55,768 nucleotides of DNA from a virus (Duplodnaviria; Caudoviricetes), in the IMG/VR virus record IMGVR_UViG_3300020045_004268, positions 1 through 55,768 of that record. One strand, 5' to 3'. Numbering within the stretch: position 1 is the first letter of the stretch; every line of letters starts with the position of its first letter. The notes below the pieces were generated by a model. The model did not search any database. It had not been told where the DNA came from and worked only from the letters and a program-made list of their open reading frames with translations. A program made the position numbers and the translations under genes. This document shows positions 2,416 to 19,881 of the stretch, in pieces.

Positions 2416-2529
2416 AAAATAAAAAATCGTTTAGGTTTCTGAGGTGGTGGCTCATACTCCCTAAACGATTAAGTTATAATTTTTTCATTCATGCCAAACC
2501 CACCACGGATAACATGTTATGCAAATATA
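2416..2529 (-). ncRNA. Structured 5' leader copy 1 (promoter plus kissing-loop hairpins)
   Basis: TATATTTG at 2529-2522; hairpin 2490-2516 with GUGGUGG; hairpin 2425-2470 loop CCACCAC, GAGUA/GAAA internal loop, U-tract, then ATG. Confidence 0.7.
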
Positions 2530-2806
2530 GTAAATATATTTAATTTAAACATGTGTGTTATATGTTTTATTGAATTTTATAAAAAGCACCTTTTTAATAT
2601 GTTGATTGTTAGTGTATTAAAAAAACACATGTTTTATAACTATCTTATTTTCAGAGTTTTAAAAAAAGTGCGTCGTTGCGGCTAATTTTTGCCGACTTTT
2701 GAAAAAAAGATGAAAAATAGCCTTTTCTCAAAAAACGCGTTTTTCTTTAAGGGTAAACCGACCCCCTGTTTTGACACATACGACGCGCCTATAAAACACG
2801 CTCATA

Positions 2807-2830
2807 AAAAAACCCGCTATCTATAGCAGG
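2807..2830 (-). terminator. Rho-independent terminator
   Basis: CCTGCTAT-AG-ATAGCGGG followed by T7 at end of SF2 helicase. Confidence 0.6.
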
Positions 2831-4460
2831 CTTCTAATTTTGATTTTATTTTATCGTGTAAGTAGTGATAAGTACGTGGCACACCGTTAGTTAACATGTT
2901 TACATATCCGTAATTTTTCTCTAAATACTCCTGTATTCGTTGCTCTAAATAGCCTGTTTTGCATCGTTTTTCGTATATTTCGGATGTGACACGGTTAAGT
3001 TTCCAAAGGTCTACATATCTCTCAATAAGAATATTGTAGTAATCGTTTTTGTTATCAGTTGTACGCTTTACAAACTCGGCAATCTTTTTACCATTAGGTA
3101 TTGGCACAACTGATACAGCCGTAGTTTTAGTTGTTGCCCTTTCAGGTTCGTCTTCAAATAGCTTAGGCTGTACTACGCGTTGCTGTGACTGGTTTTTATA
3201 GCTACAATCAGGGCATTCATCTGAAGCACTCCCTATCCAGTTGTAAGCGCATTTTTCACACTGTATCAGTATTTCCTTTTTCTTTTTTGCAGGAACTAAG
3301 CCGTTATAAAAAATTTTACCCCAGTCAATATTATCCGACCACCCGTAATCTTTAAAGCGTTTTATATTGCCGCCTAAGTCAATAAGTGTGAAGAAGGGTT
3401 TATATATCTTATTACTTACACGTCCCCCACGACCTACTATTTGGTGAAATAATGAAAGCGATTTAGTTGGCCGATTAAGAATAATAGCCTCTACTTCTTT
3501 GTCATCAAATCCAGTTGTAAACGTGCCTGTGCTTACTAATATACCCTCTTGGGTATTCCTATACCATTCAAGTATTTTTGAACGCTCTGACGTGTCATTA
3601 TTCACGCTATCATAGCTTTTAATATCATATCCTTTTTCTGAAAACACATCTACCAAAGAAAGGTTTTGTTTTGTTGAGGCTGTAAAAATCATGGTTTTTT
3701 TCCCTAATAGCTTTTCTTCGTATTCGGCTAACACATCTAAATCATGCTTTGTACTTTCCTCTGCTATTTCATTCTCATCAAAATCATCATTTTCTTTAGC
3801 TTCTAAGTTCTCATAATAGTTATATGAAAAAATAACCTCACCAACTAATGCGCCCTCATCTATAAGGGTTTTAATCGGAACTCCTGGAATAAATCCATCA
3901 TACATTTGCGACATGGTAACCGGTACTGACCATTTTTCAGCCTTTTCATTATAACAGCATTCAATACGTGCATCATGTTTTTTTTCGCAATACTGGCACT
4001 TGTAAATTGTGTTACGCTTATTTATTATAGGCGTGGCCGTGAATGCTACCCGTTTTGCATTACTAAACAGGCTAAAGGTTTTCAAGAATACGCCCTCATG
4101 TGCCTCGTCAATAACATGTAGCCCAATAGGTAATGATAATTTACGGCTCCATATAGTTTGCGTCATACCAACGTAGACACGGGTTACAAAGTTATTTTTT
4201 GATTTAGCTGTAATCTTTTCGTTTAGTATTCCGAAATTAGCTAATGTATCTGAAGTTTGAGACACAAGCTCATCACGGTGTACTGAAATTAAAACCATCT
4301 TATCGGGGTTTAATTCTAACCATCTACGTATGAACTCAGACATTATAACGGTCTTGCCGCTGCCGGTAGCAGATTGACATAATACCGAATCATATAATTG
4401 TAGCTGCTCAAAAATAGAGGTTATCATATCCTCTTGGTAGTAGTACGGGGTTATTTTCAT
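2817..4460 (-). CDS. SF2 DEAH-box helicase (RadD/YejH-like) with Zn-finger motifs
   Basis: ATGSGKT, DEAH, TATP, TTGFD, QIVGRGGR, CxxC pairs. Confidence 0.9.
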   Translation of the reverse strand: MKITPYYYQEDMITSIFEQLQLYDSVLCQSATGSGKTVIMSEFIRRWLELNPDKMVLISVHRDELVSQTSDTLANFGILNEKITAKSKNNFVTRVYVGMTQTIWSRKLSLPIGLHVIDEAHEGVFLKTFSLFSNAKRVAFTATPIINKRNTIYKCQYCEKKHDARIECCYNEKAEKWSVPVTMSQMYDGFIPGVPIKTLIDEGALVGEVIFSYNYYENLEAKENDDFDENEIAEESTKHDLDVLAEYEEKLLGKKTMIFTASTKQNLSLVDVFSEKGYDIKSYDSVNNDTSERSKILEWYRNTQEGILVSTGTFTTGFDDKEVEAIILNRPTKSLSLFHQIVGRGGRVSNKIYKPFFTLIDLGGNIKRFKDYGWSDNIDWGKIFYNGLVPAKKKKEILIQCEKCAYNWIGSASDECPDCSYKNQSQQRVVQPKLFEDEPERATTKTTAVSVVPIPNGKKIAEFVKRTTDNKNDYYNILIERYVDLWKLNRVTSEIYEKRCKTGYLEQRIQEYLEKNYGYVNMLTNGVPRTYHYLHDKIKSKLEACYR

Positions 4461-5629
4461 ATCAATATCCTTAACCCTTTCGGAGTTCTAACCCTGCTCA
4501 ACGCCACATACATCTGCCCTGGTGCAAAGCACGGCATTTTTAAATCAATACTAACTTCATCAAATGTAAGACCTTGTGATTTGTGAATGCTGAGTGCGTA
4601 AGCTAATTTAATTGGCACCTGCGTAATGCTGCCAATTTCCGTTAGTTCAAGCTGACGTAATTTTGTGTTTAGAACATATTCTTTTTTAGTGAACTTAATA
4701 GGCTCAATAGCAAACTTAACACCATCCACTTCAATAAAGTATTTTTCACCATCGGTACGGAATATACCTAATGTGCCATTGAATAGATTATTGTTTTTTG
4801 AATTAGCCAAATACATAATTTTACACCCGTCTTTTACCTTTACAACCGGGTCTAAGTTGAAGTCAGTAAACTTAACATTTCCCTCAATTATTCCTGTGAA
4901 GGTGTGCAGTTCGTTTTCAACTGATGCCAGCCCCTCAATGTTATATTTTTCTACAGTTGAGTTATGCGGGGCTAATACAATACCTTTAGGAGTATCTGAA
5001 ACGAATTGCCTAAAGTATGATGCTTTACCACCCTCACGAACGATATTGAGAGCATCAATAAAATCAGCATCAGACTGCCTTAAGACTTCAGTAAGGTCAA
5101 TTTCAATACAGTTTAATTGCTTATAAACTTGTGAATGCCTAAACGTAGTGCCTTGGTATTTTTCAAGAATAACGCTCATCATATTGTCGTCGGCGACTAT
5201 ACCTAATTGTGCCATATCCCCAACTAATACAATTTGTATATCGTTCAGTCCTTTGCATTTGTTTTTTATCAGCGTCCAGTTTATAGCGTCCAGTATATCG
5301 GGGCGAACCATACTAACTTCATCAATAAAAAGCACATCAATATTTTGCAATACAGACCTTTTAGTAGGCTTCATATAATTGCATTCCTTATACGTTAATA
5401 CGCCGAATGGCGGCAAGATAAATGTGCTGTGCATCGTAGCACCGCCTACATTATTAGCAGCTATGCCGGTAGGTGCAACAACTAAAACGTTTTTGCCTTT
5501 ATCCTGTAGCTGTTTAATGGCTTTTTTGGTAACTGTAGATTTACCTGTTCCCGCCTTGCCTGTTAAGAATATATTTTTACCCTCATGCACGGCATTTAAA
5601 AAAAGTTCTTGTGATTTTGAATATTGCAT
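4457..5629 (-). CDS. Pif1/RecD-like SF1B helicase
   Basis: GKAGTGKS, APTGIAA, DEVSM, GDMAQL, LAYALSIHKSQGLT, YVALSR; start moved to ATG at 5629 because 5653 lies inside the leader hairpin. Confidence 0.9.
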   Translation of the reverse strand: MQYSKSQELFLNAVHEGKNIFLTGKAGTGKSTVTKKAIKQLQDKGKNVLVVAPTGIAANNVGGATMHSTFILPPFGVLTYKECNYMKPTKRSVLQNIDVLFIDEVSMVRPDILDAINWTLIKNKCKGLNDIQIVLVGDMAQLGIVADDNMMSVILEKYQGTTFRHSQVYKQLNCIEIDLTEVLRQSDADFIDALNIVREGGKASYFRQFVSDTPKGIVLAPHNSTVEKYNIEGLASVENELHTFTGIIEGNVKFTDFNLDPVVKVKDGCKIMYLANSKNNNLFNGTLGIFRTDGEKYFIEVDGVKFAIEPIKFTKKEYVLNTKLRQLELTEIGSITQVPIKLAYALSIHKSQGLTFDEVSIDLKMPCFAPGQMYVALSRVRTPKGLRILI

Positions 5630-5770
5630 AATGTAATAAAAAAACAAACCCATTAACTCGCCGTGTCTACTCGGCTTATTAATGGGTGTTTTTGGTTAAG
5701 GTTAACCAGTATCGTGATAGAGGTAGACATTCTCTATTGCAAATGTAGTAAAATATTTTGAATGAGCAAA
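5630..5770 (-). ncRNA. Structured 5' leader copy 2 (promoter plus kissing-loop hairpins)
   Basis: TTTG-N19-TACATTTG promoter; hairpin 5717-5737 loop UGUCUAC; hairpin ~5646-5692 loop GUAGACA, UAA/GAG internal loop, U-tract. Confidence 0.7.
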
Positions 5771-5802
5771 TTTTATTTTTCCTACAATTTTATTCTTACA
5801 CG

Positions 5803-6033
5803 TTATTTACTATAAAAAGTTAGTTTACCGCCGCTTCTCAGCTTTCGTACTATCTTATCCTGCTTTGTCGCCAGTACATCGGTCAGCAACTCAGAGGTGC
5901 GTTTCTTGCCTATTATTCTATTCAGGTACGGAATACCCACACTTGTACTAATACGGTTGCAAAGTTTTTGGCATCCAATATATACAGGCGGCACGTTTAG
6001 CTTAATGTTGAAGTGGCGGTAGATTGAGTTCAT
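5803..6033 (-). CDS. Hypothetical basic protein
   Basis: 76 aa ORF, ATGA-coupled. Confidence 0.6.
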   Translation of the reverse strand: MNSIYRHFNIKLNVPPVYIGCQKLCNRISTSVGIPYLNRIIGKKRTSELLTDVLATKQDKIVRKLRSGGKLTFYSK

Positions 6034-6596
6034 AACTGCTGGTAAATAACCTTAATACCTAAACTAATAGCGGTGTTAACTTCAATTATCGCTCCCTTAC
6101 TATCCTGCCAATTGCTAAGCGCATAAACATATTTGCAGTTCATAAGGGCTTTAATACATTCCCTCATATAAGACTGCCATGTTTTGTCATGCTTGTGTGA
6201 TAGCTTAGTAGGGTTAATCGGGTTAAGTTTAAGCTGTTTTAAATGCAACTCGGCAGCTTCAAACAATTTTTTGTAGTTTTCTAAACCAGTAATCTTGCCT
6301 GCAATGTAAATGTTTTTAGGTATGAATAAAGCCGTGCCAGGAACCATTGAAACAAAATTATTGTACATGGCTTTATAATGCTTATCTACATCCATTAGGT
6401 CGCTATGCTGTTTTAACCCATGCATAACAGAGGCGTGGTCTTTGTTCATTTCATCACCTATCTTCTGAAGGGAGAAACCCTCTTTGCGCATTATTTGATA
6501 AATGGCATATCTTGCATATACTGAATTGCGTTTCCTATACGTTGCAAGTGGGCTACTACCGTACACCTCGGTTGCTATTTCAATTATTTCTTCCAT
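6030..6596 (-). CDS. DnaA C-terminal (domain IV)-like HTH fused to DUF4406 (nucleoside deoxyribosyltransferase-like)
   Basis: RKRNSVYAR...SLQKIGDEMNKDHASVMHG then IYIAGKITG...INP...W..YM..CI..L..C...L.NW.DSKGA..E. Confidence 0.75.
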   Translation of the reverse strand: MEEIIEIATEVYGSSPLATYRKRNSVYARYAIYQIMRKEGFSLQKIGDEMNKDHASVMHGLKQHSDLMDVDKHYKAMYNNFVSMVPGTALFIPKNIYIAGKITGLENYKKLFEAAELHLKQLKLNPINPTKLSHKHDKTWQSYMRECIKALMNCKYVYALSNWQDSKGAIIEVNTAISLGIKVIYQQL

Positions 6597-6597
6597 C

Positions 6598-6678
6598 TTA
6601 GTATATTGGTTTAGGCAGTTCTGTTACGGGGCGGTAGGCCTCCTGTATGGCTTTCTGTTTTCGTTGTTGGTTTGTCAT
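6598..6678 (-). pseudogene. 26-aa mini-ORF, possible internally deleted gene remnant
   Basis: MTNQQRKQKAIQEAYRPVTELPKPIY; ATGA overlap with upstream ORF. Confidence 0.4.
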
Positions 6679-6875
6679 TTTAACAATTTAATTTTATGTG
6701 TTATGTAACAACACCAAGAGTTACTCATTGGATAATAATGTAGGTTTTTTGTGTTGCATCGTGTGCATACTTTTTGAGATTGTTCATTATCTATTTTTCG
6801 GTTTTGTTTTAAAAAATCGATTTCTTGCTCTCTTTGATTTATTTCTTTCAAAATAGCTTCATGTACTTTCATCAT
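6675..6875 (-). CDS. Hypothetical protein with CxxC
   Basis: 66 aa coupled ORF. Confidence 0.55.
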   Translation of the reverse strand: MMKVHEAILKEINQREQEIDFLKQNRKIDNEQSQKVCTRCNTKNLHYYPMSNSWCCYITHKIKLLK

Positions 6876-7138
6876 TCCTCAATTTTAAAGTGGTTATCGA
6901 ATAGGTGTAGGGGGAGTTCGTCTCTACTAAAAAAATCCCTATCTTGTTCTGGTGAATGCATAATTTCTTTGTTCTCCCAGTAGATAAACGGCTTATCAAC
7001 ATGGTCTAATTCAGGCTCCTCAATGAAAGCCCACGCATACCCCATTTTAAACAGTTCCTTTTGCAGTATTTCGCTCTGCTGTGGCGTTACCTCCATCTTA
7101 CCTGAAGACTGGAGGGGAAGGGTTAATTTAGTCGGCAT
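6872..7138 (-). CDS. Hypothetical protein
   Basis: 88 aa coupled ORF. Confidence 0.65.
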   Translation of the reverse strand: MPTKLTLPLQSSGKMEVTPQQSEILQKELFKMGYAWAFIEEPELDHVDKPFIYWENKEIMHSPEQDRDFFSRDELPLHLFDNHFKIEE

Positions 7139-7485
7139 TATTCTAATCCTAAAAAGTTCTTGTATTTTTCTAAAACATTAGAAATATCATCTATGTTTAT
7201 CTCTTTAGCCGCTTTTTTAAAGAGATAGTCGCTATCTTCTTCAACGTGCCAAAAAAGTTCTGTAATGTCTTTTTTAAGTTCACGGGCGGTATCTAAACCT
7301 CTGCTCCATTTGTTGTAAATTTGTAAGGCCTTTGCATAATCCTCTCCTACTTTTTTATCGATTTTATCGGCGAGTTCTGCAAAATCTTCACGGCTTAAAC
7401 CTATGGTTACTCCATTAATTTCTATTCTATGGTCAAAAGCAGGCATGCCGCCTAAATAATGTCCTTCTTTTATTTCTACACTCAT
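7138..7485 (-). CDS. Hypothetical protein
   Basis: 115 aa ORF in operon. Confidence 0.65.
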   Translation of the reverse strand: MSVEIKEGHYLGGMPAFDHRIEINGVTIGLSREDFAELADKIDKKVGEDYAKALQIYNKWSRGLDTARELKKDITELFWHVEEDSDYLFKKAAKEINIDDISNVLEKYKNFLGLE

Positions 7486-7492
7486 ACTATTT

Positions 7493-7990
7493 TTATTTTA
7501 AGTTTATCTCTTTACCTATTCCACGTTCAATGAGCTGCATCGTGTCGAAGTTCCAGGCTTCTAATTGCTTATCAATAGGCTTAGTATCGAATAGTATTCC
7601 ATCCAATGCGGCGTTAAGCAATGTAAAAAAACCTCCCTCATAGCTAAACTGAAAATAATGGTCGTAGCTGGTAACCGACACCTCCGTAGTTATCTCCCAC
7701 TCTGTTTTTTTAACCATGTTAGCCAGTTCCACAATTGGCACCCCTATCCCTTCTATTTCTGTAGTAAGGCGTGAAAGGGGGTGGCACGCTATCCAATGGG
7801 TAACGCCGATGTCAGATATTTTAATAGCCTCTTTATAAGGGCTTACTTGTCCAATTGGTAAAACATCCCTCACGGTAAATATATCTTCTATTGCGCCTAC
7901 CACTAAGCATTGCCTGCCGCCAGCATCCACCAGTCTATACCCGTTCCCCGCAATAAGGTGGGCTTCTTGTTTTGTGAGGTTAGTTGTCAT
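7493..7990 (-). CDS. Hypothetical protein
   Basis: 165 aa; HPLSRLT..I and WNFD...LIERG motifs recalled from Bacteroidota phage accessory genes. Confidence 0.65.
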   Translation of the reverse strand: MTTNLTKQEAHLIAGNGYRLVDAGGRQCLVVGAIEDIFTVRDVLPIGQVSPYKEAIKISDIGVTHWIACHPLSRLTTEIEGIGVPIVELANMVKKTEWEITTEVSVTSYDHYFQFSYEGGFFTLLNAALDGILFDTKPIDKQLEAWNFDTMQLIERGIGKEINLK

Positions 7991-8243
7991 TTTCAGGAGT
8001 TATTAAAACAATTTCTTTAAGATTACTGGATGCGTTTAAAAACATTTCGTAGTTAAAGTAAATGTTGTTTTTTGTTTGAAGTATTACCTCTTTTTGGGCA
8101 GGCTTTATCGATACTATTTTGAACACGTTAAAGCGATATGTTTTCGGATAATCGTGTATATTACTGTGGAACTCACACGCAACCGTATCGCCTTTTTTAA
8201 GTGCTTCAAAATCTGCTATTGTTTCAAGTTTTTTAAATTCCAT
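7980..8243 (-). CDS. Hypothetical protein
   Basis: 87 aa ORF. Confidence 0.65.
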   Translation of the reverse strand: MEFKKLETIADFEALKKGDTVACEFHSNIHDYPKTYRFNVFKIVSIKPAQKEVILQTKNNIYFNYEMFLNASSNLKEIVLITPENDN

Positions 8244-8282
8244 TCTCTTTTGTTTTAGCCTTTCGGCATAGGTTAGTTAATC

Positions 8283-9167
8283 TTAAGTTGCTTTGCAAAA
8301 ACAGTCTGTTTCAAACTCGAACAGGTCTTTTTGTTGTTGTGAAAGTTCGTGCATGTCTTCTGCTTTCGTGAAAGGACGTTTGGCCATATCTATAATTTGC
8401 CGAATGCTTTTGTTGGTTCTTAAGTCAAATCTTGGCACTTCTTCTGTAGCATTTATTTCTTCTTGTTCAAGCCACCATGTAGCTACATCGGGGTTTTCTT
8501 TTATAATTGTGAGCCTCTTTTTTAGAGACTTTTTAAAACATAAGTCACAATTACCCTCGTAGTCTTTTAATTGTAAATCAAAATCCTGCCTACTCCACCA
8601 ACTTCTGATAAATTTACTATCTACTTTAAATTCATCACATAGCGGATATATGGTTTTTAGGTCAGTTACCGACTTTCTATGAGCCTCATCCGCACGTATA
8701 CCTACAACACTGGTATAATTAAAACCTCTTAGAAAAGCCTCTTTAGGTCTTTGTTTCAACTCCCTTGTGCAATTAGAAGCCCTATTGTTAGGCATCGTAT
8801 ATTTTCTTAGCATTGCTGCAAAGGGTTGTCCTTTCCTTGAAGCGGTTTTGAAGTTTACAATTTTATAACCAGTGCCGGAACCCTTGATGCGATTTATTAC
8901 AGCTTCAAGCCATATTGTTTTGAAATTCCAACGCACATCACATTCATTAGCGAAAAATAAACTTTCTTCTTTCTCCTTACCCGTGTTCATAAATAACACA
9001 TAGCACCGATCTCCTTTGTTATTTGTGTGGTAGTGGTATTCCGGATTTCCTTTAGATAAATAAACTCCCACAGTCTTGTTAAATCCGTTTCTCTCTAAAA
9101 AGTATCTAACTAAAAAAGCTGATGTTCTCCCGCTTGAAAAAAGTAATACATATACTTTGTTCTCCAT
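8283..9167 (-). CDS. PAPS-reductase-like (PP-loop) protein with Fe-S-type cysteines
   Basis: FSSGRTS, FMNTGKE, CTRELK, GIRADE, YPL, GNCDLCFKK, C-terminal CFC. Confidence 0.8.
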   Translation of the reverse strand: MENKVYVLLFSSGRTSAFLVRYFLERNGFNKTVGVYLSKGNPEYHYHTNNKGDRCYVLFMNTGKEKEESLFFANECDVRWNFKTIWLEAVINRIKGSGTGYKIVNFKTASRKGQPFAAMLRKYTMPNNRASNCTRELKQRPKEAFLRGFNYTSVVGIRADEAHRKSVTDLKTIYPLCDEFKVDSKFIRSWWSRQDFDLQLKDYEGNCDLCFKKSLKKRLTIIKENPDVATWWLEQEEINATEEVPRFDLRTNKSIRQIIDMAKRPFTKAEDMHELSQQQKDLFEFETDCFCKAT

Positions 9168-9174
9168 CTTCTCT

Positions 9175-9531
9175 CTATTTTAAAGGTTCTTTTCTCACTG
9201 CAAGGCCGCTGTCAACAGTGTTTACTGCCAGTGGGGCGTTAAGTTTATCTTTCAAGTACATAAGCAATCCTGTTAAAGCGCCTACGTAGTTTTTATAAAC
9301 AACCCTTAACTTTTTGTCAGGGTTATTCTTGTGCTGTTTCCAATAGGCTGTATTAGCATTTTCAACGTGTTTTATGATGCCTTGTAGCTGCTCCTTACAC
9401 GCTTCTTCTGCGTATAGCTCGGCGGCTTCATTGATAATCCTCGATACATCAATTATTACTGATTTATAAAAGCCATCAGGATGACCATATTTCTTAGCCG
9501 TTTCATCTAAGTAAAATTGTAGGGTGTTCAT
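9175..9531 (-). CDS. Hypothetical protein
   Basis: 118 aa ORF. Confidence 0.6.
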   Translation of the reverse strand: MNTLQFYLDETAKKYGHPDGFYKSVIIDVSRIINEAAELYAEEACKEQLQGIIKHVENANTAYWKQHKNNPDKKLRVVYKNYVGALTGLLMYLKDKLNAPLAVNTVDSGLAVRKEPLK

Positions 9532-11095: not shown

Positions 11096-11100
11096 AATCG

Positions 11101-11665: not shown

Positions 11666-11668
11666 ATC

Positions 11669-12627: not shown

Positions 12628-12648
12628 AATTAAATTGTTATTTGTTGA

Positions 12649-12855: not shown

Positions 12856-12877
12856 TACGTAATTAATTTTGTTTTTG

Positions 12878-12930
12878 TAAAGGTATAAAACTTTTTTAAT
12901 TACAATACACATAATTAAAAAAGTTTTATA
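12878..12930. promoter_or_regulatory. Promoter-like site with perfect 19-bp inverted repeat (operator candidate)
   Basis: TATAAAACTTTTTTAATTA-N9-TAATTAAAAAAGTTTTATA at 12884-12930 overlapping a minus-strand TACCTTTA (-7-like). Confidence 0.55.
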
Positions 12931-12931
12931 A

Positions 12932-13390: not shown

Positions 13391-13940
13391 TGGCAACCCT
13401 CATTGTTGGTTCTTCAAAGTCAAGTTTTGTCTGCCCCATTTTATCCTTAAACAAATAACTCCAAACCTCGGCTTTTATCTTTTCTGCCCAGTCATTAGCC
13501 CTTTGCTTAATTTCTTCTGAAGCCTCATCAAATACAAACAACGGGCTTTCAATTTTAGGCTTTGAACTTTCACAATCCAATTTACCTTTTAGCCTTAGCC
13601 CGGTCGTTTCTTCATCCCCAACAAACTCAACCTCGGCAACCTCAAACCTTGTAACTTCTTCTGCCCATTTACGCCGGGCTATTTCCAAAGTTTCTAAGTT
13701 CTTTCGATTGTGCTCCCTGGCAAAATCCCACCCCTCTAACATGCCCAATGATGTAGCAAAAACCTCTTTGCCTACATTATCATTAAAAGCATTTAATAGG
13801 TCGTTGTGGGGTATGTCAATGCACTTAGGTCGCTGCTCTTTGTTAGGGCGGCTTTTTTCGTAATAGGTTGCCTCAACCTTTTTACCCTCGACTTTAACCT
13901 TTATCAGGTCAAAATCACCATACGCTACTGTTTTACTCAT
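13383..13940 (-). CDS. Hypothetical protein
   Basis: Likely start MSKTV at 13940. Confidence 0.7.
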   Translation of the reverse strand: MSKTVAYGDFDLIKVKVEGKKVEATYYEKSRPNKEQRPKCIDIPHNDLLNAFNDNVGKEVFATSLGMLEGWDFAREHNRKNLETLEIARRKWAEEVTRFEVAEVEFVGDEETTGLRLKGKLDCESSKPKIESPLFVFDEASEEIKQRANDWAEKIKAEVWSYLFKDKMGQTKLDFEEPTMRVANG

Positions 13941-14253
13941 TGTTTTTCGCTTTTTTAAGTTCGTGTAATTCCCGGTCAATTTGGGCGGCTATGAGCGCAC
14001 CGGCTTTCGTTAGTTCCTTTATCCGGTTTTTAGGTGTTGGCTTAAAGTCGCTTTCTTTCCAAGGCCAAAAAGCCACATCAATGGTTACACCTTCATTGTC
14101 CTCAATACCTCTGTCTTTCGGGCTTAATGCATAACACAAAGCAGCATTAGCCAACTCATTTTTTGAGTACAACTCATCGTTTTCCACATCGTAACCCAGT
14201 TCTTTAATTTGCCTTTCACGCTCCTTTGCGATTAGGCTGCATCCATTTTCCAT
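13933..14253 (-). CDS. Conserved phage hypothetical protein
   Basis: IAKERERQI...ELA.AA.CYA...WPW...KP...R..EL.KAGALIAA.IDR. Confidence 0.75.
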   Translation of the reverse strand: MENGCSLIAKERERQIKELGYDVENDELYSKNELANAALCYALSPKDRGIEDNEGVTIDVAFWPWKESDFKPTPKNRIKELTKAGALIAAQIDRELHELKKAKNNE

Positions 14254-14257
14254 AGTT

Positions 14258-14527
14258 TTAATGTTTAGGTGCATCACGGTTAACGCCGCCTGGATTTTCC
14301 AAATCAGCAACATCTGCTGGGTTGATACCCTCGCCTACATATTGCAATCGTTTTTCGTCAAAATACTCGTTACTTTGCACTTTTCCGTCTTTTACCGGAG
14401 GTGTAAGCCCGTACTGGGTACACCCTGTTAAATACTCCACTTTCGCAGTAACAATGCCCTCAAAGCCCGTTACTAAATCTTTGGCTTTCACTCCAAGCCT
14501 CACTGAATTAAAATCAATTACTGCCAT
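14258..14527 (-). CDS. Conserved phage hypothetical protein (SH3-like)
   Basis: LG.KAKDLVTGFEGIVTA...YLTGC.QY. Confidence 0.7.
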   Translation of the reverse strand: MAVIDFNSVRLGVKAKDLVTGFEGIVTAKVEYLTGCTQYGLTPPVKDGKVQSNEYFDEKRLQYVGEGINPADVADLENPGGVNRDAPKH

Positions 14528-14533
14528 TCTTGT

Positions 14534-14698
14534 TTATTTATTAATTGTTAAACGTTTCTTACTTATCCCCAAATTATGCGCTTTTTGGGTTATTGAAAAA
14601 ATGGAACGCCCCATTAATTTAGCTATGTACCTTTTACTGGTTATAGGATATAAATGCATTAGGTACAATACATCTATAAAATCCCATGGCTTATACAT
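14534..14698 (-). CDS. Small Myb/HTH-like protein (54 aa)
   Basis: Hand-translated MYKPWDFIDVLYLMHLYPITSKRYIAKLMGRSIFSITQKAHNLGISK. Confidence 0.55.
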   Translation of the reverse strand: MYKPWDFIDVLYLMHLYPITSKRYIAKLMGRSIFSITQKAHNLGISKKRLTINK

Positions 14699-15209
14699 TG
14701 TAAAATAGCTGCTCTTGCGTATCTCTTAGCCTCCCGTATATCCTGAAAATCATACAATGTTCACCTAATACGAATTTTGTATTTATCTCGGTTACGTGCT
14801 TTGTATTGTCATCAGGTATGCACCTAAGCGTTATAATATCCTTTTTTTTAAGGTTAGCATTTCGCTCTTGTAAAGGCGTTGGTGTCTTTAGTACATCAAG
14901 GAACAGCTTACACCAAAAGTTTGTTTTGTTATCCAAATCAATATGCTGCATCTTGTGATACTCAAAGTCTAAACGCATTTTTTCTATTTCAGGTAGCCTA
15001 CCTATTTGCTGCAACAAAAACCGCTTATTCTCAACGATTATTTTTGATGTAATGTGATAAGAAGTCCTGTCTGAATAAAACAAGTTCCCGGTAAGGTAAA
15101 ATTCCTGTTTGGTTATCAACTTACCATCCTTATCGTACTTAGGCTTTTTTAGATTGATAGTGTATTTAACTGGAGGGTCACGGATTATTATTTCTCTTAT
15201 TAATTCCAT
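14691..15209 (-). CDS. RusA-like Holliday junction resolvase
   Basis: DLDN....K.FLD.L...IPDDN. Confidence 0.7.
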   Translation of the reverse strand: MELIREIIIRDPPVKYTINLKKPKYDKDGKLITKQEFYLTGNLFYSDRTSYHITSKIIVENKRFLLQQIGRLPEIEKMRLDFEYHKMQHIDLDNKTNFWCKLFLDVLKTPTPLQERNANLKKKDIITLRCIPDDNTKHVTEINTKFVLGEHCMIFRIYGRLRDTQEQLFYNV

Positions 15210-15468
15210 TTTCTTTTTCCTTTAAAAGTTTATAGTAATAGTTTACTGTTTTAGCTGTAGCCTCATCAATTTCAGATTGTGAAACCGCTTTATCGTATCG
15301 CTTCAAATTCCCGTTGTTGTTCACCTCTATGTAGAATTTTCCATTAACCCCAACTGGGTAAATTACTATTCCGCTTTTACTTAAAAAGTAAACCTTTGCC
15401 GGGTCTGACTGCGATATTTTTTTTACCGCCTTAGCTGCCAAATTCCAACTGTTTTTTAAGTTTATCAA
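15178..15468 (-). CDS. Hypothetical protein (true start probably ~15441)
   Basis: ORF in operon. Confidence 0.55.
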   Translation of the reverse strand: MINLKNSWNLAAKAVKKISQSDPAKVYFLSKSGIVIYPVGVNGKFYIEVNNNGNLKRYDKAVSQSEIDEATAKTVNYYYKLLKEKENGINKRNNNP

Positions 15469-15871
15469 TCTCGGCCTGCAGCTTTTTAGGCTCGGCCTGC
15501 AACTTCATTATTTCAATATCCTTTGTCCTTAACTGGGATTTATACCCATTGACAATATTACGCTCTGTGATGTATTCAGCTACTGCGCTTTTACAGGTGC
15601 TTTCTATTGTAGTGCAATAAGCATTAATCCTGAGAACCGAAATAAGCATGTCCTCAAACTTTTTATGATTTTTACTTTCAGGCTTCAGCTGGCCTTTAAA
15701 CTCAATAAGCGCATCACTAAGGTAAATCAAATCATTTTCGTTTTGATTGCGCTGTAGCCATAAATGGGTATCTGCCTCATCAAACCTCTTTCGCCTTTCA
15801 GATAAAAACTTCAAATGTATCTTTACTTGGTCGTGTTCCTCTTTTGAATATTCAGCACGTTCGTTTTCCAT
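15431..15871 (-). CDS. Hypothetical coiled-coil protein
   Basis: 146 aa ORF. Confidence 0.65.
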   Translation of the reverse strand: MENERAEYSKEEHDQVKIHLKFLSERRKRFDEADTHLWLQRNQNENDLIYLSDALIEFKGQLKPESKNHKKFEDMLISVLRINAYCTTIESTCKSAVAEYITERNIVNGYKSQLRTKDIEIMKLQAEPKKLQAEIDKLKKQLEFGS

Positions 15872-15873
15872 AT

Positions 15874-16518
15874 TTAAAAAAGTTGAGTTTGTTTTTCATC
15901 TTTTTTGCTGTAAATGCCCATTACGGTATCAAGTATTGTTTTACCAGCTTCGTAGTCTACAAGGTTGCGGGCTATTTTGTCAATGCGCTGTTCACCTTTA
16001 TACTGAGTGAAATCATAGTCGTGGAATTTTGATAAACGCTTTACCTCATTAGCACCGGCTCCTATTTGTATTTGCCTTTCCCCTAAATCATTTGGCAATT
16101 TAAAGTTGCACCAATACAAATGCCTGCCTCTTTTGTGTGCCGGTCGTAAAGGCTCGTAGTAGGGTATTACGTTTTCCACAAGCCACTTACCTTTGAAGTA
16201 GTGTTCAAGAAATATTATCTCTTGGTACAAAGTCATATCTGGATAAATAGCCTCTGTTGTTGTATCATAATTGCTACTACTCCAATATCTGGCTCTGGAA
16301 TGACTTGGACACGGCGGGCTGCTCCAGATAAAATCAAATTCTTTGTAATGGTCAAGTAGATACTGTTGGGCATCGGCAACTATTACCGTATCGTTAGGGA
16401 AACGCTCTTGGTAAAGTTTTGCTAATTCAGGGTCAAGTTCAACGGCTGTTATCTCATGTTCGTCGCCCCATTTGTAGCGGTTGCCTCCTAAGCAGGCATA
16501 GAGATTTAGTATCTTCAT
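15874..16518 (-). CDS. Short C5-cytosine DNA methyltransferase
   Basis: ILNLYACLGG (motif I variant), SSPPC (IV), VENV (VI), R.HL.W. Confidence 0.85.
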   Translation of the reverse strand: MKILNLYACLGGNRYKWGDEHEITAVELDPELAKLYQERFPNDTVIVADAQQYLLDHYKEFDFIWSSPPCPSHSRARYWSSSNYDTTTEAIYPDMTLYQEIIFLEHYFKGKWLVENVIPYYEPLRPAHKRGRHLYWCNFKLPNDLGERQIQIGAGANEVKRLSKFHDYDFTQYKGEQRIDKIARNLVDYEAGKTILDTVMGIYSKKDEKQTQLF

Positions 16519-16521
16519 AAT

Positions 16522-17487
16522 CTAAAAAGGTAAAGTGTCATCTTCTTCATCGTTGCCACCTAAAAGCAATGCGGCCGGGGCTTTATATTCAGCATTGGCA
16601 AAAACCTTATTCCCGTTATTGTCCTCCCAATAAAAAGAGGCTGTTTTAAGGTCAAAAAACATCGGTACTGTACCCAGCTTTGCAACGCTTTTCGGTTTGG
16701 CCTTGGTTATCATTACGTCCACCCCGTTTGCCGTTCCATCCTGCCGGTGTACCGTTATCATTACTTTTCCGCTGTTAGCCCATTCCGTACCCCCTTTAAG
16801 GTCATACATTGTCGGGGCTTTGCGCTTACCATTGGCATCTTTTTCCGTTCGTGTAGGATGTATAATCGTATGAAAGTGCATTTTATGCGCCTCAGCCATT
16901 GCGTTACGGAAACTCAATACATCTTCTAAATACTGATCATCACGCCCAAAACCATGCCCGTTATGTTTCATGTCTTTCCAGCTGTCAATAGTAGCGGTTA
17001 AAAGCATTTTGTCTTCGCCTTTCATGTTAGCGGCAAACTCCCAAAACTCATACGGGGTTATCTTTGCTTTCATATCTTCTTTTACAAGTATCTTAAAATG
17101 CTCTAAAATCCAACCTAAATGCCGTTCCACTTCCTGCTCGGTAATGTAGTTTGAGTTTATAAATCGCTTATCAAATGTTTTACCTGAAAGTTTGTGCATC
17201 AATGTAGCAATAACCTCGTTTTTATCCCCAACATCCGGAACGTAAAGCAAATGTTTCCACCCGTAAAACTTTGTTGTGTTTAAAAGCAATTCTAAAAGAA
17301 GTTCACTTTTTCCACTACCCGGCGAGCCTGTGAAATCTGTACAGCTGCCCAGCGCCATTGTGTAATGCTCGTTTAGCATAGGGAAACCCAAATACACGCC
17401 CCGTAACGCTCCGTTTTCCCTATACTGTAGCAAATCATCACGGGTGTTTTGATATGTCAGTAAATCAAATCCTTTTGGTAAATTCAT
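16522..17487 (-). CDS. DnaB/Twinkle-like SF4 helicase domain
   Basis: TGSPGSGKS, IDSW, IIHP, YDLKGG.EW. Confidence 0.8.
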   Translation of the reverse strand: MNLPKGFDLLTYQNTRDDLLQYRENGALRGVYLGFPMLNEHYTMALGSCTDFTGSPGSGKSELLLELLLNTTKFYGWKHLLYVPDVGDKNEVIATLMHKLSGKTFDKRFINSNYITEQEVERHLGWILEHFKILVKEDMKAKITPYEFWEFAANMKGEDKMLLTATIDSWKDMKHNGHGFGRDDQYLEDVLSFRNAMAEAHKMHFHTIIHPTRTEKDANGKRKAPTMYDLKGGTEWANSGKVMITVHRQDGTANGVDVMITKAKPKSVAKLGTVPMFFDLKTASFYWEDNNGNKVFANAEYKAPAALLLGGNDEEDDTLPF

Positions 17488-17490
17488 GGC

Positions 17491-17634
17491 TTACCAATTA
17501 TGAATATCAAAAATTAATGCAACTATTAAAGTAAACCAAAAAACACTACTTATTGCATTAGCATGTTCCTTTTCCATTTTAGGGCGCAATTGTCCACATA
17601 TCATAAAAGCCGAAAACAATATTACTGTACACAT
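17491..17634 (-). CDS. Small membrane protein (47 aa)
   Basis: Hand-translated, two hydrophobic segments. Confidence 0.45.
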   Translation of the reverse strand: MCTVILFSAFMICGQLRPKMEKEHANAISSVFWFTLIVALIFDIHNW

Positions 17635-17639
17635 AATTT

Positions 17640-17993
17640 TTAATTTTTAAAAGTTAATTCCTCCCCCACAAAAAAGTAGAACACATTTTGCAGGTGGTGT
17701 ACGCTGGTTAATTTCAGCCATTTTATACCCGTCCATGTGTTGTAAGTGCCATCCTCAAACTTATGGATGGCTATCTCTTTTTGAAACATGGTTTTGTATT
17801 GCTGAAAGCCGAGATTAAGGCGTATTACTTCATCACTTAAAGTGAAATATCTCAACTCACCCAAAGAGTAAGCAACTTCATCACGCCCATCATTACACCA
17901 AATTATTTCGCCACGTATACCTACTACTTTTAGAACAACACCGCTTACATCGCAAACATTGTTTCCTTTTCTAAGTTCATTCGACTGTATCAT
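17640..17993 (-). CDS. YopX-like hypothetical protein
   Basis: NELRKGN...LGF...VHHLQN.FY...GEEL. Confidence 0.7.
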   Translation of the reverse strand: MIQSNELRKGNNVCDVSGVVLKVVGIRGEIIWCNDGRDEVAYSLGELRYFTLSDEVIRLNLGFQQYKTMFQKEIAIHKFEDGTYNTWTGIKWLKLTSVHHLQNVFYFFVGEELTFKN

Positions 17994-18312
17994 ACCTTTT
18001 GTTATAAATATTATTAGCTTCAGTTATGGCGTATGCCTGCGCTTTTTGCCTGTCCTCAAAATAAAACCCGTTAATGCCGTTAAGCGTATTGTTTTCCTGA
18101 ATGTTGTAATGAAAATCAGGATGGCCTTTTACGTGGCATATACCGCCTGTTTCTATGTATATGCCTACGCTGTCAAAAAAATCAATAATTAAAAAATTAA
18201 TTATTACATCAGGAATGTTGTTTAATTCTACAACTGAAAATAGGGTATGATATTTTTGCGTATCAATAAGCCATTTTGAGCAGTGCGTCCTTGCATGGTC
18301 TGTTAGTAACAT
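17977..18312 (-). CDS. Hypothetical protein
   Basis: IIDFFDSVGIYI...R..A...AI..AN.IYN. Confidence 0.7.
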   Translation of the reverse strand: MLLTDHARTHCSKWLIDTQKYHTLFSVVELNNIPDVIINFLIIDFFDSVGIYIETGGICHVKGHPDFHYNIQENNTLNGINGFYFEDRQKAQAYAITEANNIYNKRYDTVE

Positions 18313-18317
18313 TATTT

Positions 18318-18458
18318 TTAGGGTTTAAGGTTTTCGTTTTGACTAAAAATTTTTATGTAAATAGCTATAAGAAAAAAACTAACGTAATCTAATTTTAGCA
18401 GTTTACAAATTAATGACAATGCTACCGAACAAAAAACGGCTACTAAGTATTTTTTCAT
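18318..18458 (-). CDS. Small membrane protein (46 aa)
   Basis: Hand-translated MKKYLVAVFCSVALSLICK... Confidence 0.45.
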   Translation of the reverse strand: MKKYLVAVFCSVALSLICKLLKLDYVSFFLIAIYIKIFSQNENLKP

Positions 18459-18469
18459 TCTGTTTTGTT

Positions 18470-19249
18470 TTATTGGTTATAAAATTTACCATCGTTTATT
18501 GGGGCTGTATTGGGTTTTTCGGGCAGCTTAACCATAGTTCGAGTATTATTTGCCTCGGTTATCCAATCCCGGATGCTTAACAACCATCCACGCTCTGTAC
18601 GCCGCTTTTGAGGGTTGTTCTCGCTCCACATATCAGCTTTACGGATATAGTGCTTTAAATCCACTCCTTTGAACTTTTCTACAAATTCTTTATCCTTTGC
18701 TAAGTAATCTCTCAATGTTACATAATCTGACCATTTGCATTCAGCGAAAAAAATTGCAGCCGCCGCCTCTTTTTTATTTTTAGAAGAAGTTTTTAAGGTT
18801 TCAGTAGGTAAATCAGTTTCGGAAAAAAGTAAAGGCGTTTCTTCTATTTGGTTTATATTTGGTTTATTATATGGTATAGGTTGGCTATTATCATCTAATG
18901 TATTTGGCATTACTGACTTATCCATTTGCGATAAATAGCTAATCGTGTTTTCACTAACTGTATACCATTTTGTTCTATCGTATGGAGAAGCATTATAATT
19001 TCCAGATAAAATTAATTCGTGCTTTTCAAGTTTTGACAAACAGGTTTTAATTTGGCTTTCAGTAAGCCATGTAAATTGCTCTATAAACGCTTTGATGCTA
19101 TTATAAGTCCAGTATTTGCCATCGTGAAAATTCCTGTTATTGGCCTTATTTGTATCAACCCAAAAATCAATGTTTGAGTAGATAATTGCAGCATCAGTAC
19201 CAACTATTTTAGCCATATCAGGCTCAAATGTCATTTTAACTTTACTCAT
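18470..19249 (-). CDS. Phage replication initiator (winged-helix N-terminus)
   Basis: FEPDMAKIVG..AAII...FW..N......DGKYWTYNS...F.W...QI...L.KL...YDRTKWY; upstream of DnaB-like gene. Confidence 0.75.
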   Translation of the reverse strand: MSKVKMTFEPDMAKIVGTDAAIIYSNIDFWVDTNKANNRNFHDGKYWTYNSIKAFIEQFTWLTESQIKTCLSKLEKHELILSGNYNASPYDRTKWYTVSENTISYLSQMDKSVMPNTLDDNSQPIPYNKPNINQIEETPLLFSETDLPTETLKTSSKNKKEAAAAIFFAECKWSDYVTLRDYLAKDKEFVEKFKGVDLKHYIRKADMWSENNPQKRRTERGWLLSIRDWITEANNTRTMVKLPEKPNTAPINDGKFYNQ

Positions 19250-19766
19250 GGCCAAAGTCTGTTATATGTTGTTCAATAGTATTTAATTGAGTGTCGGTTA
19301 ACTCAAACCATTCGCCATCTACTCTAAACATAGCAAAAACAGAATGCAGATAAGCCTCGCAAAGAATATTATCAACCTTAAACTCTGAAAAAAGAGTTAT
19401 GCTTGGGTTTGATGTTTTCAATGTTTTCATTCTGTCGCTAATCTTGCCTCTTGTCATCCCTATTTTAAATAGGTTTGTTCTTTCGCATTTAGCAACATAA
19501 ATTATTCCCGGTGTTATTTTTTTTTCTTTTTTATTGCAAGGAGGCTCGTAACGATAATCAGCTTCTAAAGATTTGTTTTCTCTATCCATATAAGAAATTA
19601 CATTATCATAATTAGTTATTGAATTTTCTAAACATTCCTTTAAATGAATAAGGTCTTCTTTGGTGGGAATTTCATACCAATTTCCAGTAAAAAGACAAAG
19701 ATGCTCTTTTCCATCATCTGAACTTTTTATTCTTAATTGGAAAAATTTAAACACATTTGTTATCAT
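19242..19766 (-). CDS. T5orf172/Mug113 GIY-YIG domain protein
   Basis: IYV...FKIGMT...R...L.TSNP...E..LH..F...RVDGEWF.L. Confidence 0.85.
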   Translation of the reverse strand: MITNVFKFFQLRIKSSDDGKEHLCLFTGNWYEIPTKEDLIHLKECLENSITNYDNVISYMDRENKSLEADYRYEPPCNKKEKKITPGIIYVAKCERTNLFKIGMTRGKISDRMKTLKTSNPSITLFSEFKVDNILCEAYLHSVFAMFRVDGEWFELTDTQLNTIEQHITDFGHE

Positions 19767-19881
19767 AATAAAAAAAATCCATTTGGTTTCCCCGTGACGG
19801 CAGGTACTCCCAAATGGATTAAAATTAATAAAGTCTTTTGTTGTAATAAAGCCCGTCAGAATTATTACTTCGACAAATATA
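19767..19881 (-). ncRNA. Structured 5' leader copy 3 (promoter plus kissing-loop hairpins)
   Basis: TATATTTG at 19881-19874; hairpin 19843-19868 with UGACGG; hairpin 19776-19820 loop CCGUCA, GAGUA/GAAA internal loop, U-tract, ATG. Confidence 0.7.

What the first reader, a model, noticed from the sequence alone, without database searches (positions are those of the whole stretch)
2416..19881. Family of three kissing-loop RNA leaders, each with a different loop code, ahead of replication operons
Seen: three intergenic regions (2416-2529, 5630-5747, 19767-19881) share one minus-strand architecture: TAnnTTTG promoter, hairpin A, AU-rich linker, long hairpin B with an internal loop, U-tract, start codon. 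Primary sequence differs, yet loop A is the exact complement of loop B in each copy (GUGGUGG/CCACCAC; UGUCUAC/GUAGACA; UGACGG/CCGUCA). This is covariation within one genome. They precede the primase-helicase, Pif1/SF2 helicase and initiator/DnaB operons. Known: long-range pseudoknots control rep translation in IncI/IncB plasmids, and loop E plus kissing loops occur in lysine riboswitches. Inference: a cis-regulatory RNA switch (attenuation or translation) coordinating phage replication genes, with orthogonal loops preventing cross-pairing. I do not recognise it as a named family.
Basis: partly seen in the sequence, partly recalled or inferred. Interest (0 to 1): 0.88.

Follow-up and report, generated by a model that had tools for sequence, protein, structure and literature searches.

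The report
Kissing-loop terminator leader RNAs in phage
Three replication gene blocks of this Flavobacteria-type phage each start with a short folded RNA in which the tip of a first hairpin base-pairs with the tip of a transcription-stop hairpin. Related phages keep this design with many different letter pairs and no RNA catalogue lists it, so it is probably an undescribed gate on early gene expression.

Summary
At 2529-2413, 5747-5627 and 19881-19764 (minus strand) a Bacteroidota sigma-A -7 box (TAnnTTTG) is followed by a hairpin at about +2, an AU-rich linker and a long hairpin B (lower stem, purine-rich internal loop, 4-bp upper stem). A U run and the start codon follow. Loop A is the exact complement of loop B (7, 7 and 6 nt).

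This is a real RNA family:
- Type I relatives of copy 2 keep the 7-bp kiss in 8 of 8 sequences, with 3 compensated pairs.
- In phage contigs, 80 of 85 hairpins carrying the GGGAGUA/GAAACC core have a complementary upstream partner. At least 26 different codes are used.
- Non-cognate pairs match in about 5% of cases.
- Background pattern matches in prokaryote genomes gave 2 of 17.

Rfam 15 has no member. A weak sub-threshold resemblance to the trpB motif is generic. My literature searches found no description.

The leaders head helicase, primase, initiator and HNH/GIY-YIG genes. Function is untested. My best reading is a promoter-proximal intrinsic terminator braced by a tertiary kiss, which doses or gates read-through. 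No RNA data were available.

Earlier AI notes of this scan flag the same family in several other phage genomes.

The parts
2522..2529 (-). el1 sigma-A type -7 box TATATTTG; predicted +1 at about 2517
   Evidence: consensus and its position (-12 to -5) from PMC9723704 passages
2490..2516 (-). el1 hairpin A (7-bp stem, 13-nt loop) holding kiss segment GUGGUGG at 2500-2506
2425..2470 (-). el1 hairpin B: 11-bp lower stem, GAGUA/GAAA internal loop (loop-E-like by recall), 4-bp upper stem, loop CCACCAC at 2444-2450
   Evidence: arms 2425-2435 / 2460-2470, 100% complementary
2413..2424 (-). el1 U run (2416-2424) and ATG (2413-2415) of the 128-aa HNH-like ORF, which is followed by the primase
5740..5747 (-). 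el2 -7 box TACATTTG, with TTTG 19 nt upstream; predicted +1 at about 5735
5717..5737 (-). el2 hairpin A (6-bp stem, 9-nt loop) holding kiss segment UGUCUAC at 5723-5729
5693..5708 (-). el2 middle hairpin (UGGUUAA..UUAACCA), typical of subtype I
   Evidence: helix 3
5648..5687 (-). el2 hairpin B: 10-bp lower stem, AA/GA internal loop, 4-bp upper stem, loop with GUAGACA at 5664-5670
5627..5647 (-). el2 U-rich tract and ATG (5627-5629) of the Pif1/Dda-like helicase. The ATG at 5653 lies inside hairpin B.
19874..19881 (-). el3 -7 box TATATTTG; predicted +1 at about 19869
19843..19868 (-). el3 hairpin A (7-bp stem, 12-nt loop) holding kiss segment UGACGG at 19853-19858
19776..19820 (-). el3 hairpin B: 11-bp lower stem, GAGUA/GAAA internal loop, 4-bp upper stem, 6-nt loop CCGUCA at 19795-19800
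19764..19775 (-). el3 U run and ATG (19764-19766) of the T5orf172/MUG113 protein, followed by the DnaD-like initiator

Best explanation
Each element is the 5' leader of a transcript started by host RNA polymerase at a sigma-A promoter.

The RNA begins with a hairpin at its very 5' end. About 60-70 nt later comes an intrinsic-terminator-shaped hairpin with a U run. The terminator's apical loop forms a 6-7 bp helix with the loop of the 5' hairpin, or in some relatives with the single-stranded 5' end.

I read this as a promoter-proximal terminator whose fold is fixed by a tertiary kiss. It stops part of the transcripts, both those from the local promoter and those reading in from the gene upstream. 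It thereby sets how much RNA enters the replication or homing-nuclease genes behind it. The stopped product would be a compact leader RNA of roughly 90-105 nt, closed at both ends.

Shown: the structure, the kiss, its conservation through compensation, the promoter and start-codon context, and restriction to phage DNA in my samples.

Inferred: that hairpin B terminates, that the kiss changes how well it does so (the direction is unknown), and that read-through is constitutive rather than triggered.
For: Structure and kiss:
- Type I relatives: the kiss helix is paired in 100% of cells in 8 of 8 sequences. Three of its 7 pairs are changed on both sides and none on one side. The whole structure is 94.6% paired against 76.6% in shuffles (0 of 500 reach it). 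G-U variants occur in the stems.
- Gene strand of 103 related loci plus the window: 36 of 238 unique terminator-like hairpins have a >=7-nt loop complement within 90 nt upstream, against 2.75 expected. Opposite strand: 10 of 521 against 6.15.
- Pattern hits for the GGGAGUA..GAAACC..U5 core in viral contigs: 85 of 116 have a lower stem, and 80 of those 85 have the kiss.
- Of 39 distinct apical regions, 35 have a cognate match of >=6 nt. Among 1,400 non-cognate pairs the rate is 4.8%.

Terminator shape:
- A perfect 10-11 bp lower stem abuts a U run.
- In a search that did not ask for a U run, 23 of 32 unique promoter+kiss+hairpin units have >=4 T in the next 8 nt. In most of the rest the U's are absorbed into the predicted stem.
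- Spacing from the U run to the ATG varies from 0 to 27 nt.

First terminator after the upstream gene:
- 39 of 62 elements lie <=120 nt after a same-strand ORF. Only 1 of those 39 has another terminator-like hairpin in between.

5' leader position:
- 31 of 42 unique units have TAnnTTTG, mostly 8-16 nt before the kiss segment.
- The -7 box lies at -12..-5.

No competing antiterminator fold:
- Hairpin B pair probability is 0.87-0.98.

Genes behind the leaders:
- Helicases, primases, initiators and HNH/GIY-YIG nucleases. Dose control of such genes is plausible.
Against: - There are no RNA data: no 3' ends, no read-through measurements.
- Good terminators directly before essential replication genes argue that something must relieve them, which favours the factor-dependent rival.
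- The start codon lies only 0-27 nt after the U run, so the U tract could equally serve translation initiation in SD-less Bacteroidota.
- A 5'-terminal hairpin is also a classical mRNA stabiliser.
- The test for a geometric coupling between tether length and hairpin B length gave no positive correlation: Spearman -0.24 for all elements and -0.11 per code. It says nothing on whether the kiss helps or hinders stem completion.
Confidence: 0.45

Rival explanations
1. Factor-dependent antitermination unit (delayed-early timing). Hairpin B terminates efficiently until a phage or host protein recognises the shape of the kissing complex, not its letters, and lets the polymerase pass. In logic this resembles lambda N/nut-tR1 or PR'-tR'/Q.
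For: - Terminator-shaped hairpins sit before essential replication genes.
- The shape is conserved while the loop letters vary freely: at least 26 codes in one subtype.
- Conserved purine-rich internal loops (GAGUA/GAAA, UGAU/UGAU, sometimes flipped) look like protein or tertiary contact sites (reading by eye).
- No RNA-only alternative fold is evident.
Against: No candidate protein was identified. I did not scan all ORFs for antiterminator families. Different subtypes carry different internal loops, so a single binding site is not conserved.
Confidence: 0.2
2. Post-transcriptional element. The knot protects the mRNA 5' end and keeps the leader from mispairing. The U tract after hairpin B is the single-stranded landing pad for SD-independent translation initiation. 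Hairpin B does not release the polymerase to any useful degree.
For: - Hairpin A starts at about +2 of the predicted transcript.
- The ATG lies 0-27 nt after the U run in 38 of 42 units.
- The hosts are Bacteroidota, inferred from the promoter type and from cultured relatives.
Against: A simple 5' hairpin would protect the end without any kiss. The U run abuts a long perfect stem as in true terminators. Spacing to the ATG is variable.
Confidence: 0.2
3. Small-molecule or ion riboswitch of the guanidine-IV type. A ligand stabilises the kiss, which hinders completion of the terminator stem.
For: The overall layout is the same: two hairpins and a kiss involving the hairpin that extends into the terminator. 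In guanidine-IV the kiss competes with the terminator stem (PMC11611296 passages).
Against: - The loop letters are not conserved, whereas guanidine-IV has highly conserved nucleotides around the kiss.
- The kiss here is 6-7 Watson-Crick pairs and should form without a ligand.
- No Rfam hit to the mepA model even at E<=10.
- The gene context is replication and nucleases.
Confidence: 0.05
5. DNA-level signal: operator half-sites or an origin, not an RNA.
For: The kiss segments are an inverted repeat in the DNA, and the elements lie in the replication module.
Against: - There are three different repeats in one genome and dozens in relatives.
- The repeats always sit in the loops of hairpins whose stems covary and tolerate G-U on the sense strand only.
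- Enrichment is confined to the gene strand.
Confidence: 0.02

Closest known systems
Guanidine-IV riboswitch (mepA motif)
   Same: A 5' leader with two hairpins whose loops kiss. The second hairpin extends into an intrinsic terminator, and the state of the kiss is tied to the termination decision (PMC11611296, passages read).
   Different: There, conserved nucleotides around the kiss bind guanidinium, and the kiss competes with the terminator stem. Here the loop letters vary freely and the kiss is a plain 6-7 bp helix. There is no Rfam match. The genes are phage replication and nuclease genes.
Lambdoid promoter-proximal terminator units (PR'-6S RNA-tR' with Q; nut/tR1 with N). Recalled, not read here.
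   Same: A constitutive promoter is followed within about 100-200 nt by a terminator placed before the genes, including replication genes. A short terminated RNA is the default product.
   Different: No Q- or N-like factor is known here. In lambda the terminator loop does not pair with the 5' part of the RNA.
trpB motif, Rfam RF04312 (PMC11109978, passages read)
   Same: Hairpin, AU-rich linker, intrinsic terminator and U run in a 5' UTR. All three copies give a full-length but weak match (21.3, 16.0, 17.1 bits).
   Different: The gathering score is 59 bits. P1 is not matched, and the upper domain of hairpin B is a 20-nt insertion in the alignment. The trpB motif is found in Firmicutes and Fusobacteria before amino-acid transporter genes.
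IncI/IncB repZ leader pseudoknot, and the lysine riboswitch loop E plus L2-L3 kiss
   Same: Long-range loop pairing in a leader of a replication gene; co-occurrence of a loop-E-like internal loop with a kissing loop.
   Different: The Inc pseudoknot activates translation and is blocked by an antisense RNA, with no terminator involved. No lysine riboswitch model matches.
   Same: Phage RNA with two loops that are mutually complementary. The letters differ between phages while complementarity is kept.
   Different: pRNA loops pair between molecules to build a ring on the packaging motor. Here the partners lie in one leader before a gene and can pair within the molecule.

Membership tests
Guanidine-IV riboswitch (mepA motif) | Match to the Rfam covariance model | tested here: not met
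   No match at gathering score in the whole window. None listed at E<=10 in 1-24000 or in the three short stretches with permissive filters.
Guanidine-IV riboswitch (mepA motif) | Highly conserved nucleotides around the kissing loop (PMC11611296) | tested here: not met
   Three different codes in this genome. At least 26 codes among 85 units of one subtype. About 40 overall.
Guanidine-IV riboswitch (mepA motif) | Stands before guanidine export or detoxification genes | tested here: not met
   The first ORFs behind 67 distinct units are helicases, primases, initiators, HNH/GIY-YIG nucleases and methylases.
Guanidine-IV riboswitch (mepA motif) | Ligand-stabilised kiss that hinders completion of the terminator stem | not testable with these tools
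   Needs transcription assays or probing.
trpB motif (RF04312) | Score at or above the gathering threshold (59 bits) | tested here: not met
   21.3, 16.0 and 17.1 bits; E = 0.43, 4.6 and 2.8.
trpB motif (RF04312) | P1 hairpin with an anti-terminator shoulder; Firmicutes/Fusobacteria; amino-acid transporter context (PMC11109978) | tested here: not met
   P1 pairs are non-standard in the alignment, and only the linker, the lower stem of the terminator and the U run align. Phage context with Bacteroidota-type promoters.
Lysine riboswitch | Match to the Rfam model | tested here: not met
   Searches list no such match.
Intrinsic (Rho-independent) terminator | Stable stem directly followed by a U run | tested here: met
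   10-11 bp lower stems abut U runs in all three copies. The same holds in most relatives.
Intrinsic (Rho-independent) terminator | Release of the transcript at the U run | not testable with these tools
   No RNA run was listed.
Lambda-type antitermination unit | A dedicated antiterminator protein (N- or Q-like) in the same genome | not tested
   Only 20 of about 84 ORFs were scanned against family libraries. None of these is an antiterminator family.
IncI/IncB rep leader pseudoknot | Leader peptide coupling and an antisense RNA that blocks the pseudoknot | not tested
   No leader ORF is visible in the ~100-nt leaders. An antisense promoter was not looked for.

The most novel reading that the evidence does not exclude
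The kiss is a self-mark that lets one hairpin serve two opposite jobs. RNA made from the local promoter carries the 5' hairpin free at its end and forms the kiss in time to weaken or bypass the terminator. RNA reading in from the upstream gene terminates. If so, the element is an RNA-only insulator-plus-pass device. Each copy uses its own 6-7 letter code, so copies in one cell do not interfere, and phages would hold a natural library of orthogonal RNA transcription gates.
Probability: 0.1. Interest if true: 0.9.

Novelty: new variant of a known kind. Interest (0 to 1): 0.74.

Why it matters
If the reading holds, a large group of Bacteroidota phages controls entry into its replication and homing-nuclease genes with a leader RNA type that has not been described. 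The tertiary contact is supported by unusually rich natural compensation, with dozens of loop codes.

That makes the structure directly testable by loop swap and rescue. It offers a set of naturally orthogonal parts for RNA engineering. It also gives a handle on early gene timing in phages of Flavobacteriia and Bacteroidales, where almost nothing is known about transcription control.

A cultured phage-host pair carrying one copy exists: Flavobacterium phage vB_FspP_elemoF_6-3D on Flavobacterium sp. BAL314.

Tried and rejected
- RNA evidence: the look-up of sequencing runs (kind rna, window 1-6100) listed no RNA holder.
- Near-identical phage records: none.
- The sigma-70 type promoter and simple terminator scan was uninformative. 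It has the wrong promoter type, and hairpin B exceeds its loop limit.
- MAFFT alignment of the three copies plus L001 (A1) was out of register for hairpin A and was not used for counting.
- My first, strict lower-stem filter gave 57 of 116 for viral contigs and 0 of 118 for prokaryote genomes. It missed bulged stems, for example L281. I replaced it with a fold-based filter.
- Tether length against hairpin B half-length: no positive correlation, so inconclusive.
- Trans partner for the loops elsewhere in the genome: apart from the trivial antisense strand, there were only a few 10-mers, about what I estimate for chance.
It is not a general feature here.
- Cellulophaga phage phi46:1: no unit by my descriptor.
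- Model R1 was searched on the window and L001-L099. L100-L103 were left out because of the limit of 100 sources.
- Literature: searches found no description of this family.
  - The catalogue paper PMC10690425 (passages read) does not mention kissing loops, HNH or primase in its main text.
  - Its supplementary tables of 8,495 IMG/VR candidates, 1,241 of them with predicted terminators, could not be opened and may include members.


Full report
WHAT THE WINDOW IS. The window is the whole held record: one 55,768-base contig with 38.8% G+C. All long ORFs are on the minus strand. The packaging, lysis and head-tail genes run from about 55 kb down to 26.8 kb; the large terminase is at 52114-54156. 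A replication module runs from 26.6 kb to the end. The last ORF, a primase with BT4734-like N and PriCT domains, is cut by the contig end: relatives are 782-796 aa. The nearest cultured relatives of the primase are phages of Flavobacterium, Maribacter, Tenacibaculum, Polaribacter, Cellulophaga and Bacteroides, all below 60% identity. No near-identical record is in the phage collection.

THE OBSERVATION. On the minus strand, all three regions read as follows: TAnnTTTG, hairpin A, AU-rich linker, long hairpin B with an internal loop, U run, ATG. TAnnTTTG is the sigma-A -7 box of Flavobacterium and lies at -12 to -5 (PMC9723704, passages). The predicted starts are therefore about 2517, 5735 and 19869, and hairpin A begins at about +2.

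RNAfold recovers both hairpins in each copy. The z-scores against dinucleotide shuffles are -2.0, -5.5 and -3.0.

The loop pairs are exact complements: GUGGUGG/CCACCAC, UGUCUAC/GUAGACA and UGACGG/CCGUCA. They are predicted single-stranded in the secondary-structure ensemble, while hairpin B is solid. Cognate duplex energies are -11.1, -7.7 and -7.8 kcal/mol, and no non-cognate combination is better than -2.6.

el1 and el3 share the GGGAGUA/GAAACC internal loop. From recall, this fits the bulged-G (loop E) consensus AGUA/GAA. They differ by three compensated pairs in the lower stem. el2 is a different subtype, with a middle hairpin and an AA/GA internal loop.

Of the other TAnnTTTG sites in the genome, the one at 44296 has a hairpin and a terminator-like hairpin but no loop complement. 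The remaining sites, at 50927 and around 55541-55573, have no such leader.

IS IT MORE THAN CHANCE, AND IS IT CONSERVED? I fetched 103 related loci from viral contigs with the helicase, the primase and the initiator as queries.

The closest relative of el2 (L001, helicase 96% identical) has C-G where el2 has U-A in the kiss.

I then ran a descriptor scan that asks only for a hairpin of at least 10 pairs followed by T5.
- It found 238 unique hairpins with 5-10-nt loops on the gene strand.
- 36 of them have an exact complement of 7 nt or more to the loop within 90 nt upstream. Permuting the upstream regions gives 2.75.
- On the opposite strand the figures are 10 of 521 against 6.15.

For the el2 subtype I built a covariance model. 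It has 8 strong matches, with E at most 2e-13, among the window and L001-L099. On their model-based alignment, the kiss helix is paired in every sequence. Three of its 7 pairs are changed on both sides and none on one side only. The whole structure is 94.6% paired against 76.6% in shuffles (0 of 500), and slid controls fall to 34-45%.

For the el1/el3 subtype I scanned viral contigs for the core GGGAGTA-N12-18-GAAACC-N8-12-TTTTT.
- Of 116 matches analysed, 85 have a lower stem, and 80 of those 85 have the complementary upstream segment.
- Among 39 distinct apical regions, 35 have a cognate match of 6 nt or more. That compares with 4.8% of 1,400 non-cognate pairs. 26 different codes occur.
Of these, 17 had a stem-like flank and 2 had a kiss-like match. 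One is AT-only. The other is a true member on a contig of a MAG labelled Parabacteroides.

In these samples the element is therefore a phage feature, and the background rate of the kiss is low.

ANATOMY OF THE FAMILY. Of 42 unique core-pattern units that passed the strict stem filter, 31 have TAnnTTTG, mostly 8-16 nt before the kiss segment. The kiss segment starts mostly 28-36 nt before hairpin B. An ATG opening an ORF of at least 40 aa follows the U run by 0-27 nt in 38 of the 42.

By eye, several subtypes exist:
- with a middle hairpin (el2-like);
- with the loop-E-like core, sometimes with its two strands swapped;
- with UGAU/UGAU internal loops and a compact 4-bp hairpin A carrying an 8-nt loop;
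- with the 5' partner single-stranded right at the transcript start, pairing 8-10 nt.

In many el1/el3-type units the upper stem is 4 bp and the loop is 6 nt, all of it paired.

When I searched from promoters for a kiss plus a hairpin without asking for a U run, 32 unique units came out. In 23 of them at least 4 of the next 8 bases are T. In most of the others the U's are drawn into the predicted stem, and three look like chance hits.

CONTEXT. In this genome:
- el1 precedes a 128-aa ORF with an HNH-like motif (by eye; no Pfam or PHROG hit) and then the primase.
- el2 precedes a Pif1/Dda-like helicase and an SF2 helicase.
- el3 precedes a T5orf172/MUG113 protein, a DnaD-like initiator and, further on, a DnaB-like protein.

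Behind 67 distinct units, the first ORFs carry these families:
- ResIII/DEAD helicase domains (14);
- BT4734-like primase N domain (11);
- DUF6291 (6);
- HNH_3 (5), NUMOD4 (4), HNH (2) and GIY-YIG (2).

Of these 67 units, 37 came from loci fetched with replication proteins, so they are biased. In the 30 units from the pattern scan the picture is the same: replication initiators or DnaD-like proteins (4-5), HNH endonucleases (4), helicases (3) and primase/helicases (3).

Of 62 elements with a same-strand ORF ending within 400 nt upstream, 39 lie 120 nt or less behind it. Only 1 of those 39 has another terminator-like hairpin in the gap. Hairpin B is therefore usually the first terminator-shaped structure that upstream transcription meets.

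Leaders are exchanged as modules. Between the SF2 helicase and the primase, the window has 758 nt (intergenic region, el1, HNH-like ORF). These are unrelated to the 308 nt at the same place in L014, whose primase is 97% identical and which carries an el2-type leader directly before the primase.

HOW IT MOST LIKELY WORKS. Hairpin B has the form of an intrinsic terminator, and the ensemble shows no competing antiterminator fold. The loop of hairpin B is made about 27 nt before the end of the U run, so the kiss can form before the termination decision (inference).

My rough geometry puts the stacked helices at about 75-90 Å, to be spanned by a 17-22-nt linker that can reach about 100-130 Å. That suggests the kiss and the full hairpin B can coexist.

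I therefore read the element as a promoter-proximal terminator whose apical domain is pre-folded and held by the 5' hairpin. It would set the fraction of read-through and would also stop transcription coming from upstream.

The direction of the kiss effect is open. [quoted passage not shown]

Strong-looking terminators before essential genes make a factor-dependent version (delayed-early timing) a serious rival. The closeness of the start codon to the U run, together with the 5'-terminal hairpin, keeps a translational or stability role alive. No RNA data could be obtained.

COMPARISON WITH WHAT IS KNOWN. Rfam 15 gives no match at gathering scores, and none in the three regions at E<=10 over 24 kb.

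With the most permissive filters on the short stretches, all three copies give a full-length but weak match to the trpB motif RF04312: 21.3, 16.0 and 17.1 bits against a threshold of 59. The alignment shows that only the linker, the lower terminator stem and the U run fit, and the upper domain of hairpin B is a 20-nt insertion. The trpB motif is a two-hairpin terminator leader of Firmicutes and Fusobacteria (PMC11109978, passages). The resemblance is generic and membership fails.

Guanidine-IV membership also fails on the model match, on the conserved loop nucleotides and on the gene context.

My literature searches found no description. A catalogue of 8,495 candidate structured RNAs from IMG/VR (PMC10690425, passages) may contain members in supplements that I could not open.

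EARLIER NOTES OF THIS SCAN. AI notes, unchecked, describe the same kind of leader in a number of other phage genomes. I took two leads from them and tested both here.
- The link to homing-nuclease genes is supported.
- The third pairing site at the start codon is not general in my set: 6 of 70 against 1.5 expected, and none in this window.

VERDICT. The mechanism is inferred, not shown. A cultured Flavobacterium phage carries one copy before its initiator and primase/helicase genes, which makes the decisive experiments feasible.

Noticed in passing
window 44177-44296 (-): A fourth promoter (TATATTTG) is followed by a hairpin and a terminator-like hairpin with a U run before the head-tail operon. 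It has no loop-loop complement and may be a plain attenuator or a degenerate relative.
   Followed up: partly
window 2530-2816: The ORF-free stretch upstream of the el1 promoter has an inverted repeat (2547-2559 / 2622-2634, 92%) and ATGTTTTAT twice. Relatives show similar GCGTGTTTTAT-like words at the same place (by eye). It is possibly an operator or an origin.
   Followed up: partly
window 2037-2794 versus L014:2690-2997: The segment between the SF2 helicase and the primase (intergenic region, el1, 128-aa HNH-like ORF) is replaced in a 97%-identical relative. That relative has 308 unrelated bases carrying an el2-type leader and no nuclease ORF. The unit of promoter, leader and nuclease behaves as an exchangeable cassette.
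   Followed up: partly
window 2029-2415 (-): The 128-aa ORF has no Pfam or PHROG hit but carries an HNH-like motif (H..D....NN...N) by eye. It is probably a degenerate homing nuclease.
   Followed up: no
window 2-2032 (-): The primase ORF runs off the contig end. Full-length relatives are 782-796 aa, so the record is cut inside this gene or is circularly permuted.
   Followed up: no
window 5651-5653 (-): The longest-ORF start of the Pif1-like helicase (ATG at 5653) lies inside the 3' arm of hairpin B. The in-frame ATG at 5629, after the U run, is the likelier start.
   Followed up: no
L342 (NC_055853.1) about 9208-9320 (-): The cultured Flavobacterium phage vB_FspP_elemoF_6-3D has one member (kiss GUGGAGG/CCUCCAC). 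It stands before gp17, the replication initiation protein and the primase/helicase.
   Followed up: yes
L281 (contig of a MAG labelled Parabacteroides): A true member with an 8-nt kiss, a promoter-like box and the loop-E-like core. The contig may be a prophage or a phage contig binned with the MAG.
   Followed up: partly
L105, L029, L038, L144 and others: In a few relatives the kiss-A letters recur next to the start codon: 6 of 70 against 1.5 expected. This could give a second partner for loop B in some lineages.
   Followed up: partly
window 20685-22895 (-): A 736-aa protein matches both DNA helicase and DNA methyltransferase PHROGs, so it is a fused helicase-methylase.
   Followed up: no
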